Assembly: GCA_019058445.1 (NCBI GenBank)
Contig: JAHPZA010000004.1
Location: forward strand, 386,184-450,183
Direction of reading: 5' to 3'
Length of the DNA: 64,000 nucleotides
Origin: Promethearchaeota archaeon
GTDB taxonomy: Archaea; Asgardarchaeota; Lokiarchaeia; Sigyniarchaeales; SOKP01
Below, one piece after another: positions 3,233-6,338 of this stretch; position 1 is the stretch's first letter, and the number at the start of each line of letters is the position of its first letter. The notes under the pieces were generated by a model, which was not told the origin of the DNA, searched no databases, and saw only the letters and a program-made list of their open reading frames with translations. The position numbers were made by a program, and so were the translations under genes.

Positions 3233-3799
3233 TTAACTCGTTTTAGAGGGATTTTTTATTGCTTCTTCTTTTTTTAAATGAATAAGATATTGAATAGATC
3301 TATATGTAGAGAGCCCACCTTGACATATTAAAGCCAAACATATAAAAAGTATTGCGATTAAATCATTGAATATAAACAAAAATAACAGAATTAGAATCCC
3401 AGAGAGAGTAAATGTGAAGATAGATGAGATTTCACCAAAAATTATTTTCCAAGATTTTGATTTCTTTATATGCACCTTCAATTCTTCTTGATATTTCTCC
3501 TCACCAACTTGTTTAACATACCAACTACCTTCTATATTATTGGCGAACAAAAAGAGACTCCAAAAAAAAATAAAAAACGCAAAATAAAAGTCTAAACACC
3601 CAAGAATAATGAGCGGAACTTGGATAATAACAATACCCTTCCAACCAAGTTTTCTGGCAATTTTATTAGTTTCCAGTTTTAATTCTTTAGTAACATATCT
3701 CGTTGAGAGGATGTCAAGAGATCTGCCAAGTATTACAATAAAAGCATTTATGAGATATTGGTACCATTCAGTGGAATGAAATATAAGTTGGAGTATCAT
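3233..3799 (-). CDS. Hypothetical integral membrane protein
   Basis: 188-aa ORF with several hydrophobic helices and a DxxST...ExN motif. Confidence 0.7.
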   Translation of the reverse strand: MILQLIFHSTEWYQYLINAFIVILGRSLDILSTRYVTKELKLETNKIARKLGWKGIVIIQVPLIILGCLDFYFAFFIFFWSLFLFANNIEGSWYVKQVGEEKYQEELKVHIKKSKSWKIIFGEISSIFTFTLSGILILLFLFIFNDLIAILFICLALICQGGLSTYRSIQYLIHLKKEEAIKNPSKTS

Positions 3800-3983: not shown

Positions 3984-5324
3984 GTGAAAGAGAAAAAAGA
4001 TTTGCAATGTAAATATGAGAATTGTACAAATAGGAAGATAGATTACAACGAAAAAAATACTAATTCTAATCTATTGTTTTTGGATATCTTCGAAGATAAG
4101 AAGACTTTAGAAGACTATGTTATTGAACAAATTCAGTATTATTCTAGAACAGGTGAAAGATTATATCAACAAGAAGACATTACGAAAGCACTTAAATTTA
4201 GAATGGCTGATTTCAAGCCTAAAGTAATGAATATAATTAGAAGTATATTTTACACAAAAAAAGAGGATATTATTCAGACTATCTACGATATGACTTTTGG
4301 GAAAGTTAGATTTGCAATTCAGAAATTACGACATTGGGCTTCGCAAAATGGAATGGAAGTATTAACGACATCTCAAGAATGGTTTGATATGGTACTTAAT
4401 AGAGATGAATATCTCAAAACTGGACCTAAAAAGACAACAGAATTTTTAAAAGTTTTAATAAAGTGTGCTCAAGGCCATATTTATGTTAAATATGCAAGGG
4501 AAATTTCAAAGGGATGTAAACATTGTCAACCGTATAGGGTCGGTATTGCATATACTCGTACTTTAGAAGAATACTATGAATATATAAAGGATGTCTGCTC
4601 AGTAAGAGGTTATGAATTAATAACTACGAAAAAAGAGATTATATTAAAATTAAAGAAATCCAGACAGATTAAAGATCGTACTAGTTTTGAAGGTCGTGAT
4701 GAAAATGTTGGGATAGAAGTGAGACATAAAGGATGTAATCATGAATTTAAAATTCGTTTTAAAGCTGTTTTGTATAATCCTGGATGTAAATTCTGTATTT
4801 CACACAAAAAACAAAAAATTGTACAATTAATAATAGAAGAGATGTTAGGAGAAAAATTTGAACCTGAGGTACAAATTCATAGAGTATTTAATAAAGTGAA
4901 GCATAAAGAAGTAAATGATTTCGATTTTAGAGTCAAATTGGATATGTTTAAAAAGGTAGGAATTAGAGATAAAAATGGAAATTTTATTAAATTGGCTATT
5001 GAAAGACATGGCCAACAACATGAGCCCACACTAAAAGGATTCAAAATCTATTTAAAAATAGCTAAACATCCTGATATAAAAAGAGGAAGTAAAATATATA
5101 AAACATTATGGAAGAAGTGGATGAAACAGTTAAACACTGATAAAAAAGAAATAGAGATATTTCAAAAATATAATGAAAATGGTTATTATTTAATTGTAGT
5201 GCATCATAAGATTAAAAATCATCAAGTAGAGCAATTTATTATTAACGAATTGATGAGACAAACAGGCAATAAAATTAGCTATATAGGTATTCAATGGCAA
5301 ACCTTATTTAATAAGATAAAGTAA
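3984..5324 (+). CDS. Zinc-ribbon repeat protein with C-terminal PD-(D/E)XK-like nuclease domain (homing/restriction endonuclease-like)
   Basis: Two C/H zinc-ribbon units (CAQGH...GCKHC; GCNHEF...GCKFC), then LDMF...LAIERHGQQH, resembling LDxY..LAxEYxGxQHY nuclease domains. Very basic. Start uncertain. Confidence 0.6.
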   Translation: MKEKKDLQCKYENCTNRKIDYNEKNTNSNLLFLDIFEDKKTLEDYVIEQIQYYSRTGERLYQQEDITKALKFRMADFKPKVMNIIRSIFYTKKEDIIQTIYDMTFGKVRFAIQKLRHWASQNGMEVLTTSQEWFDMVLNRDEYLKTGPKKTTEFLKVLIKCAQGHIYVKYAREISKGCKHCQPYRVGIAYTRTLEEYYEYIKDVCSVRGYELITTKKEIILKLKKSRQIKDRTSFEGRDENVGIEVRHKGCNHEFKIRFKAVLYNPGCKFCISHKKQKIVQLIIEEMLGEKFEPEVQIHRVFNKVKHKEVNDFDFRVKLDMFKKVGIRDKNGNFIKLAIERHGQQHEPTLKGFKIYLKIAKHPDIKRGSKIYKTLWKKWMKQLNTDKKEIEIFQKYNENGYYLIVVHHKIKNHQVEQFIINELMRQTGNKISYIGIQWQTLFNKIK

Positions 5325-5357
5325 AAAATTTTTAAAAATAGTCATATAACTTAACGT

Positions 5358-5538
5358 TTCCGGGTTCCCGAACCATCCATAAATCAGATGATTTTTCGGA
5401 TGGGACCGGGTACTATCCTCGATAGCCATGACCGTAAGCAAACTTATGCTTGCGTTGCAATACACAACGCAATTTACAGTTTGATAGTTCCCACAGATTG
5501 CAACTGCAGTACTATTATCAACGCGTATCGAGTTTAAC
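5358..5538 (-). rRNA. rrf: 5S rRNA, circularly permuted and intron-containing: 3' half 5538-5474, linker 5473-5438, 5' half 5437-5395, intron 5394-5365, micro-exon 5364-5358
   Basis: The minus strand carries all 5S helices in swapped order: helix I UUACGGU/ACUGUAA; helix II GC-UAUCGAG/CUCGAUA-C-GC; helix III ACCCGG/CCGG-AA-GU; loop C UCCCAUCCGAAC after splicing; loop E UAGUA/GAA; helices UUGAUA/UAUCAA and CUGCAG/CUGUGG. Confidence 0.85.
5365..5394 (-). other. Predicted 30-nt BHB-type intron in 5S rRNA loop C
   Basis: UCCG-AAA-AAUCAUCU(GAUUUAU)GGAUGGUU-CGGG-AAC: 4-bp central helix, two 3-nt bulges, 8-bp intron stem. Removal restores the conserved CCGAAC. Confidence 0.7.
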
Positions 5539-5600
5539 CTTCGGCGTTATGCGAAATGCTTTGTTATATGATTATATTATAAAAAAGAAAAATTATGAAG

Positions 5601-5620
5601 AATAATAAATTTTATCATTT
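5601..5620 (-). promoter_or_regulatory. Possible TATA/BRE promoter of the 5S precursor
   Basis: Minus strand reads GATAAAATTTATTATT about 30 nt upstream of the outer stem. Weak evidence in an AT-rich genome. Confidence 0.3.
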
Positions 5621-5717
5621 TTTAAGAACTTAGATGTCTATGTAATTCATAAATTAATTTTTTATGCGATAAATTATATCATTAAATATCTTAATAAAGC
5701 CAAGTACGGATGATTAG

Positions 5718-6338
5718 ATGCCTAACAAAATTGTAATCTTATTGAAAAGAATTCTAAAATTTTGGTTTATCGCCCTTATCGTAGCTATTCTTATAGTATA
5801 TCTTTACTATCCGAATTATGCAATATGGATGACTGTGATTAGCATAATTCTGATAGTTTTATCATTTATCCCCAGTCTCTATTTTCGTTTTAGATTAGTG
5901 AGGTTTATGAAAGAATATTATAGAATAGATGATAAAACAATTGCAAGATATTTTAAGAAACCACTGAGAAAAATACAAAACAAAATGTTTGCGATGTCTC
6001 AAAAGCAAGAAGGTAAAAGTTGGTGGAAAAGGCTTCTCGAAAGACTTCTAAAAAAGGAGGCTGAACCAACATTAAAGCTAGACAAAAAAAAATGGCTTAT
6101 TATTTTCTTTAATAGACAATATATCTTTTACCACATGGAAACTATTGAAAAAATAAAAGAACTCTTTATAAAGGGCTATAACGACAAAGAAATGTTAGAA
6201 GATCTTAAAGAATTTGAGATAAAAAATAGAGATGAGATTAAAGCAATCATTCAGACGCTACTAAAAAACAAAAGAATTAGTGAGAGGACCACGAGTGTTA
6301 AAGAACGTCAGGAAAAAAAGCGTTTTGAAAATTTATAA
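5718..6338 (+). CDS. Hypothetical protein with two N-terminal TM helices and a basic cytoplasmic domain
   Basis: 206-aa ATG ORF with a hydrophobic N-terminus. Confidence 0.7.
   Translation: MPNKIVILLKRILKFWFIALIVAILIVYLYYPNYAIWMTVISIILIVLSFIPSLYFRFRLVRFMKEYYRIDDKTIARYFKKPLRKIQNKMFAMSQKQEGKSWWKRLLERLLKKEAEPTLKLDKKKWLIIFFNRQYIFYHMETIEKIKELFIKGYNDKEMLEDLKEFEIKNRDEIKAIIQTLLKNKRISERTTSVKERQEKKRFENL

What the first reader, a model, noticed from the sequence alone, without database searches (positions are those of the whole stretch)
5438..5473. Structured linker between the native 3' and 5' ends of the 5S: circular mature rRNA or second processing step
Seen: the linker AUUGCGUUGUGUAUUGCAACGCAAGCAUAAGUUUGC folds into a strong UUGCGUUG/CAACGCAA hairpin and a short GCA/UGC hairpin capping helix I. 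No clear BHB is visible. Inference: either another nuclease removes it to give a normal linear 5S, or the ribosome carries a covalently closed 5S of about 151 nt, like the circular SRP RNA of Thermoproteus.
Basis: partly seen in the sequence, partly recalled or inferred. Interest (0 to 1): 0.7.

Follow-up and report, generated by a model that had tools for sequence, protein, structure and literature searches.

The report
Intron-like cap on circular 5S rRNA
The 36-base "linker" in this Asgard archaeon's rearranged 5S rRNA gene is a 4-base loop closing helix I plus a 30-base insertion that looks like a removable mini-intron, and RNA from relatives shows this kind of 5S exists as a closed circle of about 120 bases, which has not been described for any ribosome.

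Summary
The 36 nt at 5438-5473 (minus strand) join the 3' and 5' strands of helix I of a circularly permuted 5S rRNA gene and contain a 9-bp hairpin.

The reading needs changing. In 71 of 75 related permuted 5S genes the same position is only a tetraloop (UUCG in 42) on a covarying 3-bp stem. The window's linker is that cap (G-UUUG-C) plus a 30-nt insertion (5473-5444). The insertion is framed by a relaxed bulge-helix-bulge motif: CAAA|CUGU|AA^A|hairpin|GCAU|AA^G|UUUG. It has the same size and the same AA^N cut signature as 41 other ~30-nt insertions in loop C and helix IV of relatives' 5S genes. Removing it gives CAAACUGUAAGUUUGCUUACGG, a string found uninterrupted in relatives' DNA and RNA.

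Two metatranscriptomes from different studies hold cyclic 120-121-nt 5S contigs from relatives. These contain both the tetraloop cap and the ligated loop-C junction.

Best reading (about 0.5): the insert is spliced out and the mature 5S is a 121-nt covalently closed circle. Rivals are a 151-nt circle that keeps the insert, and linear forms.

No RNA of this species was available. The permuted gene is the only 5S found in most of the class. No publication was found. The scan's first readers had already noted the permutation on this same DNA.

The parts
5438..5473 (-). The finding's 'linker'. It is made of the 30-nt insertion (5473-5444), G5443, the UUUG tetraloop (5442-5439) and C5438.
   Evidence: Sequence. 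The split follows from the alignments with relatives.
5444..5473 (-). 30-nt insertion AUUGCGUUGUGUAUUGCAACGCAAGCAUAA, a candidate BHB-type mini-intron. Its layout is 1 nt of bulge 1, a 9-bp hairpin with a 5-nt loop, H_B GCAU, and 2 nt of bulge 2.
   Evidence: Absent from 71 of 75 homologues. BHB score 15, the best in the precursor. P = 0.0025 in 400 dinucleotide shuffles and 3 of 20000 at the fixed boundaries. Same size and AA^N bulges as 41 other insertions in relatives' 5S genes.
5476..5483 (-). Exon side of the motif: h_A CAAA (5483-5480) and H_A CUGU (5479-5476). Bulge 1 is AAA (5475-5473), with the predicted cut between 5474 and 5473.
5439..5449 (-). H_B GCAU (5449-5446), bulge 2 AAG (5445-5443, predicted cut between 5444 and 5443), and h_B UUUG (5442-5439). 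After splicing, h_B becomes the tetraloop.
   Evidence: The whole-precursor MFE pairs CAAACU with AGUUUG around the hairpin.
5474..5538 (-). Exon 1, the 3' part of the 5S: GUUAAAC, helix II 3' strand, helices V/IV, helix I 3' strand. 65 nt.
5395..5443 (-). Exon 2, the 5' part of the 5S: cap, helix I 5' strand, helix II 5' strand, helix III 5' strand, and loop C up to CCCAUCCGAA. 49 nt.
   Evidence: Relatives' partial Rfam RF00001 hits to model positions 26-52 fall in the homologous stretch.
5365..5394 (-). Second 30-nt insertion, in loop C (UCCG AA^A ... CGGG AA^C). It is context, not part of the finding.
   Evidence: The same insertion type is present in 27 of 75 homologues.
5358..5364 (-). 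Exon 3, CCCGGAA (7 nt). It ends at the predicted trailer cut (AA^A).
5539..5571 (-). Leader: outer stem UCAUAUAAC (5571-5563), P2 AACG (5548-5545), central helix CCGA (5544-5541), and bulge AGG (predicted cut between 5539 and 5538).
   Evidence: P2 and H covary across 14 genes (83.6% paired against 68.5% in shuffles).
5342..5357 (-). Trailer: third bulge nucleotide A5357, P2 CGUU (5356-5353), and outer stem GUUAUAUGA (5350-5342). A T-rich run follows at 5341-5323.

Best explanation
The 36-nt linker is two things.
- Six nucleotides (G5443, UUUG 5442-5439, C5438) are the last base pair and the tetraloop that permanently close helix I of a circularly permuted 5S rRNA.
- The other 30 nt (5473-5444) are a BHB-type mini-intron.

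Proposed pathway.
1. The ~215-nt precursor is cut by the tRNA-splicing endonuclease (EndA) at three bulge-helix-bulge-like motifs: the leader/trailer stem, the loop-C insertion and this cap insertion. Each cut falls after the second nucleotide of a 3-nt bulge (AA^N).
2. RtcB joins the ends.
3. The product is a 121-nt covalently closed 5S rRNA with no free ends at helix I, and it enters the ribosome as a circle.

Shown: the gene order; the covarying fold; tetraloop caps in relatives; the motif and its statistics; cyclic RNA contigs in relatives; EndA and RtcB genes in the genome.

Inferred: that this particular insertion is cleaved; that the circle is the mature ribosomal form; and the exact cut sites.
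For: 1. In 71 of 75 homologous permuted 5S genes the linker position is a 4-nt loop on a 3-bp stem. Loop counts are UUCG 42, UUUG 9, UACG 6, UUAG 6, UCCG 3. The stem is paired at 211 of 213 positions with 10 stem types, and all 3 distal pairs covary.
2. Deleting 5473-5444 gives CAAACUGUAAGUUUGCUUACGG. The same string is contiguous in the genes of G126, G067 and G110 and in an RNA-run contig (X1 record 1).
3. The BHB scan gives CAAA|CUGU|AA^A|UUGCGUUGUG..UGCAACGCAA|GCAU|AA^G|UUUG, with H 3/4, h' 10 and h 4, score 15. This is the best score in the precursor. Only 1 of 400 dinucleotide shuffles reaches it anywhere, and 3 of 20000 reach it at the comparative boundaries.
4. There are 41 other ~30-nt insertions at loop C (27 genes) and helix IV/loop D (14 genes) in relatives. 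The modal length is 30 nt and the dominant bulges are AA^A and AA^N. The window's cap insertion scores at the top of their range.
5. Presence and absence within one genus is precise. G000, G004, G006 and G009 have the insertion. G001, G003, G005 and G007 have a clean tetraloop.
6. Circular RNA in relatives. X2 records 6 and 7 wrap with period 120. Six of the seven contigs laid from the two RNA runs are 150-151 nt (= 120/121 + k-1); the seventh is 146 nt. They come from two studies and carry the cap and the ligated CCCGGAA-GUUAAAC junction together.
7. At least three different break points give the same product: after CCNGGAA; after CCCGGUC in G013 and L091-L099; before helix III in G020. Ligation therefore seems obligatory.
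8. EndA (68 bits) and RtcB (574 bits) are encoded in the genome.
9. An engineered E. coli 5S with its native ends joined by a 4-nt connector works in ribosomes (PMC7283268).
Against: - No RNA of the window's species was available. X3 is colinear with the genome and looks like DNA.
- The central helix has only 3 of 4 pairs, with a C.U mismatch next to bulge 2.
- The strict BHB fold is about 7 kcal/mol less stable than two alternative folds: -10.6 against -17.9 and -17.8 kcal/mol.
- The homologous insertions of G004 and G009 fit the motif poorly (score 8, a 7-nt 5' loop). Their minimum-energy fold is a simple extension of helix I.
- The distal end of helix I lies far from 23S rRNA in the ribosome (PMC7283268), so a retained extension is likely to be tolerated there and splicing is not functionally required.
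- Contigs cannot show abundance along the circle or RNA ends, so a circular intermediate cannot be told from a circular mature form.
Confidence: 0.5

Rival explanations
1. The 30-nt insertion is a retained expansion of the helix I cap, perhaps a decayed intron. The leader/trailer junction and the loop-C insertion are processed and the ends ligated, but the cap insertion stays. This gives a 151-nt circular 5S with a Y-shaped extension on helix I.
For: - The local minimum-energy fold keeps helix I plus the 9-bp hairpin plus a small hairpin (-17.9 kcal/mol).
- The G004 and G009 versions fold as helix I extensions and match the BHB rule poorly.
- H has a mismatch.
- The end of helix I lies far from 23S rRNA in the ribosome (PMC7283268), so extra RNA there is likely to be tolerated.
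Against: - The exact 30-nt size, the AA^A / AA^G bulges and the layout (1 + hairpin + 4 + 2) match the insertions at loop C and helix IV, and those can hardly be retained.
- The motif score is at the top of the family range, and its chance probability is 0.0025 or less.
- The ancestral cap sequence is kept intact around the insertion.
- The insertion is precisely present or absent within one genus.
Confidence: 0.25
2. The linker is a processing signal. After circularisation, or instead of it, a nuclease removes the linker and gives a conventional linear 5S of about 115-120 nt with free ends at helix I. This is the first reader's other alternative and resembles permuted tRNA maturation in Cyanidioschyzon.
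For: - Permuted tRNA genes are matured this way, as cited in PMC4267664.
- Contigs cannot exclude a minor circular intermediate.
Against: - In 71 of 75 relatives the 'linker' is a UNCG-type or similar tetraloop on a covarying stem, with no room or signal for an excision step.
- Cyclic RNA contigs that contain the cap were assembled at depths up to 137 in two studies.
- Nothing is conserved between the G000 and G004-type insertions apart from the BHB-related parts.
Confidence: 0.1
3. The mature 5S is a linear permuted molecule. The precursor is cut at the leader/trailer motif but not ligated, or it is re-nicked there. The ends then lie in helix III/loop C and helix I stays capped, comparable to the permuted mitochondrial 5S of brown algae.
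For: - Permuted linear 5S molecules exist in brown-algal mitochondria (PMC4267664).
- Contigs cannot show ends.
Against: - Junction-spanning sequence (CCCGGAA-GUUAAAC) is present in all seven relatives' RNA contigs that were laid.
- The break point differs between genera, so unligated molecules would carry nicks at different functional sites of loop C and helix III.
- RtcB is present.
Confidence: 0.1

Closest known systems
Permuted SRP RNA gene of Thermoproteus tenax, matured into a circular SRP RNA by the tRNA-splicing endonuclease (Plagens et al. 2015, PMC4731332)
   Same: The 3' part of the gene lies before the 5' part. There is a BHB-type motif at the new ends. The ends are ligated into a stable circular functional RNA, and the natural ends are closed by a loop.
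   Different: The host RNA is 5S rRNA, a ribosome component. The trait covers most of a class rather than a few species. Several break points exist. The cap itself carries an extra intron-like insertion. In the present case circularity is shown only by contigs from relatives.
Circular or circularly permuted 23S rRNA in archaeal ribosomes (PMC12918454; Pyrococcus, PMC7758197)
   Same: EndA/BHB excision and ligation of an rRNA, with the circle or a permuted form kept in the ribosome.
   Different: Those genes are colinear and circularisation joins the natural ends. Here the gene is permuted and ligation restores loop C. The same paper states that 5S rRNAs are not processed through circles.
Archaeal BHB introns in tRNA, rRNA and mRNA genes
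   Same: A short insertion with two 3-nt bulges, a ~4-bp central helix and flanking helices. Its removal restores a conserved sequence. The genome encodes EndA and RtcB.
   Different: No intron has been reported in a 5S rRNA gene in the library searched. The central helix has one mismatch. The host site is a hairpin cap where removal is not obviously needed.
Permuted mitochondrial 5S rRNA of brown algae (Valach et al. 2014, PMC4267664)
   Same: Helix I is replaced or closed by a hairpin, so the usual ends are missing.
   Different: There the final RNA is linear, with ends at the loop A junction, and no splicing or ligation is involved. It is organellar, not archaeal.
Permuted tRNA genes of Cyanidioschyzon merolae (Soma et al. 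2007, cited in PMC4267664)
   Same: A permuted gene, a circular intermediate made through a BHB motif, and varied break points.
   Different: There the linker is removed by RNase P and tRNase Z to give a linear tRNA. Here the linker is a tetraloop in most species, which argues against removal.

Membership tests
5S rRNA (Rfam RF00001) | Three-way junction with helices I-V that covary | tested here: met
   In permuted order, 95.8% of cells are paired, 19 of 34 pairs show double changes, and 0 of 500 shuffles reach this. The re-ordered 121-nt sequence folds into the 5S shape at -34.7 kcal/mol.
5S rRNA (Rfam RF00001) | Colinear match to the family model at or above the gathering score (38 bits) | tested here: not met
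   No hit in the window or in the whole genome at E <= 10. Relatives give only sub-threshold hits that overlap the permuted gene. This is the expected result for a permuted gene.
5S rRNA (Rfam RF00001) | It is the only 5S candidate in the genome | tested here: met
   One copy in G000. In the single-contig genomes G102 and G103, the only RF00001 signal overlaps the permuted gene.
Archaeal BHB intron (for 5473-5444) | [quoted passage not shown] | tested here: inconclusive
   The bulges AAA and AAG are in the right geometry. The central helix CUGU/GCAU has 3 of 4 pairs, with a C.U mismatch. The strict fold evaluates to -10.6 kcal/mol against an MFE of -17.9.
Archaeal BHB intron (for 5473-5444) | Flanking helices h and h' | tested here: met
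   h is CAAA/UUUG (4 bp). h' is 9-10 bp.
Archaeal BHB intron (for 5473-5444) | Rule-based excision restores the uninterrupted homologous sequence | tested here: met
   The product CAAACUGUAAGUUUGCUUACGG equals the relatives' DNA and an RNA contig.
Archaeal BHB intron (for 5473-5444) | Absent from the mature RNA, or cleaved by EndA | not testable with these tools
   No RNA run holds this species' transcript.
Archaeal BHB intron (for 5473-5444) | Splicing endonuclease and RtcB ligase encoded in the genome | tested here: met
   PF01974 at 68 bits on C9 and PF01139 at 574 bits on C1.
Permuted RNA gene matured through circularisation (Thermoproteus SRP RNA type) | 3' part upstream of 5' part, with the natural ends joined by a loop | tested here: met
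Permuted RNA gene matured through circularisation (Thermoproteus SRP RNA type) | BHB-like motif formed by leader and trailer | tested here: met
   H and P2 covary: 83.6% paired, against 13-42% for slid controls. The window's own H has an A.C mismatch.
Permuted RNA gene matured through circularisation (Thermoproteus SRP RNA type) | RNA molecules that span the ligated junction | tested here: inconclusive
   Met for relatives, with cyclic contigs in two RNA runs. Not tested for the window's species.
Permuted RNA gene matured through circularisation (Thermoproteus SRP RNA type) | The circle is the mature, functional form | not testable with these tools
   Contigs give neither ends nor levels. This needs RNase R treatment, a northern blot, or a ribosome structure.

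The most novel reading that the evidence does not exclude
In most Promethearchaeia (Lokiarchaeia-type Asgard archaea) the ribosomal 5S rRNA is a covalently closed circle of 120-121 nt. It is made from permuted genes by the tRNA-splicing machinery. In this species, making it takes three BHB events, one of which removes a 30-nt intron from the very loop that closes helix I. This would be the first circular 5S rRNA and the first 5S rRNA introns known.
Probability: 0.45. Interest if true: 0.9.

Novelty: new variant of a known kind. Interest (0 to 1): 0.78.

Why it matters
5S rRNA is treated as a universally linear, intron-free molecule. Reviews and recent work on archaeal rRNA circles explicitly exclude it. 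A class-wide permuted gene that yields a circular 5S would change several things.
- It extends circular RNA into a second ribosomal component.
- It explains why 5S is 'missing' from many Asgard genome bins, because standard models fail on the permuted gene.
- It shows how far the tRNA-splicing machinery has been recruited in the closest archaeal relatives of eukaryotes.

The linker is the test point. It decides between a 121-nt circle, a 151-nt circle and a linear 5S. If the insertion is spliced, it is an intron sitting in a dispensable hairpin loop. That makes it a clean natural case for asking how BHB introns are gained, kept and lost.

Tried and rejected
- Rfam scans of the window (gathering threshold, and E <= 10 on 5000-6000) and of the whole genome gave no 5S hit.
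- ARAGORN found no tRNA in the window.
- BLAST of both 30-nt insertions against the genome found no other copy, so they are not a repeated mobile element by sequence.
- RNA runs: X1 and X2 hold relatives only, and nothing covers 5460-5473. X3, of unknown kind, is colinear with the genome. There was therefore no test of splicing or circularity for this species.
- The pattern scans of genome contigs and metagenome contigs used a pattern that was too loose. Only one true hit was found (L136, Promethearchaeota archaeon LW60_4, with a G009-type cap insertion), so no new cap-insertion variants were gained.
- The naive BHB scan of all homologues is noisy, because natural 5S hairpins score 10-13. I used it only together with the comparative boundaries.
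- An anchor-regex parser for the insertions failed and was replaced by the covariance-model alignment.
- Pfam found nothing for the three neighbouring ORFs.
- Assembly artefact was considered and rejected. An independent run (X3) carries the same arrangement with 11 differences, and four other genomes carry a homologous cap insertion.
- A C/D-box or other small RNA inside the insertion was considered. No box motifs were seen by eye and this was not pursued.

Full report
**What is at the coordinates.** It lies between ...CAAACUGUAA (ending at 5474) and UUACGGUCAUGG... (starting at 5437). These are the 3' and 5' strands of 5S rRNA helix I, in the wrong order for a normal gene. Rfam finds no 5S in the window or anywhere in the 4.6-Mb, 92.6%-complete genome, even at E <= 10. 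Folded alone, the 36 nt form a 9-bp hairpin and a 3-bp hairpin (-12.9 kcal/mol, z -2.1). With the helix I flanks the z-score is -3.2.

**The gene is a permuted 5S and it is conserved.** DNA and covariance-model searches found the same arrangement in relatives.
- It is in 118 of 131 sampled genomes of the window's family (f1).
- It is also in families f3 and f4 of the same order, and in f5, f6 and f7 of other orders of the class. I checked several by eye.
- One family (f2) has canonical 5S genes scoring 53-69 bits. It includes single-contig genomes of 4.4 and 6.0 Mb.
- A relative's record is titled 'Promethearchaeota archaeon', so this is the Lokiarchaeia-type Asgard class.
- In single-contig family members, the only RF00001 signal is sub-threshold and overlaps the permuted gene.
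- In permuted order the 5S fold is strongly supported. 95.8% of cells are paired, 19 of 34 pairs show compensatory changes, and no shuffle or slid control comes near.

**What the linker is in relatives.** In 71 of the 75 aligned genes the two helix I strands are joined by only 10 nt, a 3-bp stem plus a tetraloop. The stem is paired at 211 of 213 positions, comes in ten types, and all three pairs covary. The tetraloop is UUCG in 42 genes, UUUG in 9, UACG in 6, UUAG in 6 and UCCG in 3. Only G000 (the window) and three species of the same genus (G004, G006, G009) carry 30-31 extra nucleotides there. The other members of the genus in which the gene was found (G001, G003, G005, G007) have a clean tetraloop. 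The alignment places the window's extra 30 nt at 5473-5444. What remains is CUGUAAG-UUUG-CUUACGG. The same 22-nt string, CAAACUGUAAGUUUGCUUACGG, is uninterrupted in the genes of three relatives and in an RNA-run contig (X1 record 1).

**The insertion looks like a BHB mini-intron.** A rule-based scan looked for a 4-bp central helix with 3-nt bulges 3' of it on each strand, cutting after the second bulge nucleotide.
- Its best candidate in the whole precursor is CAAA|CUGU|AA^A|UUGCGUUGUG...UGCAACGCAA|GCAU|AA^G|UUUG. H has 3 of 4 pairs, h' has 10 bp and h has 4 bp. It excises exactly 5473-5444.
- Only 1 of 400 dinucleotide shuffles reaches that score anywhere. Only 3 of 20000 shuffles of the insertion reach it at the comparative boundaries.
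- Most of the score comes from the hairpin. Given the hairpin, I estimate the chance of the remaining features at about 1% (my own estimate, not a tool result).
- The family context matters more. The covariance-model alignment shows 41 other insertions of about 30 nt in 5S genes of relatives. Twenty-seven are in loop C (20 of them exactly 30 nt, with UCCG AA^A ... CGGG AA^C). Fourteen are in helix IV/loop D (9 of them exactly 30 nt, with bulge 2 AA^T in 8).
- Loop C and helix IV are functional cores, so those insertions can hardly stay in the RNA.
- The window's cap insertion has the same length, the same AA^N cut signature and the same layout (1 + hairpin + 4 + 2 = 30). Its score is at the top of their range.
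- The genome encodes EndA and RtcB. ARAGORN recognises only 23 tRNA genes in it, most of them flagged as interrupted. This fits a recent preprint on heavily interrupted Asgard tRNA genes.

**Weak points of the intron reading.**
- The central helix has a C.U mismatch.
- The strict BHB fold is about 7 kcal/mol above two near-equal alternatives. One is helix I plus a Y-shaped cap at -17.9 kcal/mol. The other is CAAACU/AGUUUG with a 5x5 loop and the hairpin at -17.8.
- The G004/G009 versions fit the motif poorly (score 8) and fold as plain helix I extensions.
- A cap extension would probably be tolerated. [quoted passage not shown]

**Circularity.** Leader and trailer form a covarying stem. It has an outer helix, a helix P2, a central helix H (CCGG/CCGG, changing to CUGG/CCAG), and bulges AAG/AAN. 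It is 83.6% paired, against 13-42% when slid. Cutting after the second bulge nucleotide and joining gives CCCGGAA-GUUAAAC, the canonical sequence of helix III and loop C.

Two other break points exist. One is after CCCGGUC in G013 and a set of g19 genomes. The other is before helix III in G020. The same rule restores the canonical sequence at the first, which I checked. Different break points with one cap make sense only if the ends are always ligated.

The one search for sequencing runs found no RNA of this species, but it found two metatranscriptomes from different studies with relatives' 5S.
- Six of the seven contigs laid from them are 150-151 nt, which is 120/121 + k-1. The seventh is 146 nt.
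- X2 records 6 and 7 visibly wrap with period 120.
- The contigs carry the tetraloop cap and the ligated junction together, at mean depths up to 137.
- Genomic DNA with distinct leader and trailer cannot give such cycles.
- Contigs cannot tell a mature circle from an intermediate, and they cannot show ends.

**Verdict on the linker.** With all three motifs processed, the window's 5S would be a 121-nt circle (65 + 49 + 7 nt). With the cap insertion kept it would be 151 nt. My estimates:
- about 0.5 that the cap insertion is spliced and the mature RNA is a 121-nt circle;
- about 0.25 for a 151-nt circle that keeps it;
- about 0.1 each for linearisation at helix I and for an unligated permuted linear form.

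The linearisation model fits worst, because in nearly all relatives there is nothing to remove except a stable tetraloop.

**Comparison with what is known.** The closest analogue is the permuted SRP RNA of Thermoproteus, which EndA processing turns into a functional circle (PMC4731332). Circular or permuted 23S rRNA in archaeal ribosomes is also known (PMC12918454, PMC7758197). That literature states that 5S rRNAs are not processed through circles. Known archaeal 5S maturation uses tRNase Z or an A/U-motif endonuclease. Permuted mitochondrial 5S of brown algae is linear and unrelated in mechanism. Seven full-text searches found no report of a permuted or circular archaeal 5S or of a 5S intron. 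The library does not cover all journals.

Earlier first-reader notes of this scan on the same DNA had already proposed the permutation, the BHB-like closing stem and the loop-C intron. I re-derived and tested those. The intron reading of the linker, the tetraloop caps, the class-wide spread, the multiple break points and the RNA circles are new here.

Noticed in passing
window 5365-5394 (- strand): A second 30-nt insertion splits the conserved loop C (CCGAA|CCCGG) and leaves a 7-nt exon (5364-5358). The same type (UCCG AA^A ... CGGG AA^C, with a covarying inner hairpin) is present in 27 of 75 relatives' 5S genes.
   Followed up: partly
L064:71-243, L088:71-243, L061, L076 and others (relatives' 5S genes): Fourteen relatives carry insertions of about 30 nt in helix IV/loop D of the 5S gene, with good canonical BHB motifs (for example H 4/4, h' 7-9, h 3-6; bulge 2 AA^T). 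L063 (G124) has a 31-nt insertion at another loop C position. 5S introns therefore occur at four or more sites.
   Followed up: partly
L007 (G013), L091-L099 (g19 genomes), L006 (G020): The permutation break point is not fixed. Most genes break after CCNGGAA. G013 and a set of g19 genomes break after CCCGGUC, on the 5' side of loop C. G020 (family f3) breaks before helix III. At the first two break points, which I checked, the BHB rule restores the canonical sequence.
   Followed up: partly
L010:2287-2418 (G007): G007 has a second, degenerate copy of the permuted 5S about 800 nt from the intact one (39 bits against 135 bits). It is probably a pseudogene.
   Followed up: no
whole genome G000: ARAGORN recognises only 23 tRNA genes in 4.6 Mb, and flags 19 of them as intron-containing. 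None lies in the 64-kb window. The tRNA genes seem heavily interrupted or otherwise non-standard.
   Followed up: no
L003 (G026, family f2): The sister family f2 keeps canonical, colinear 5S genes. G026, a single 4.4-Mb contig, has three tandem copies about 375 nt apart. Within the order, f2 is the only sampled family found with a canonical colinear 5S.
   Followed up: partly
window 3984-5324 (+), 5718-6338 (+), 3233-3799 (-): The three ORFs flanking the 5S gene (446, 206 and 188 aa) have no Pfam match at E <= 0.01. The 446-aa ORF ends about 20 nt from the 5S trailer stem, convergent with it.
   Followed up: partly
window 5551-5560 (- strand) and homologous leaders: Between the outer stem and P2 the leader carries a small hairpin that varies in sequence but keeps pairing in relatives (for example AAGCaaaucGCUU, GUAGCaucucGCUAC, AUAGCucaaaGCUAU). 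This makes the processing stem a three-way junction. Its role is unknown.
   Followed up: no
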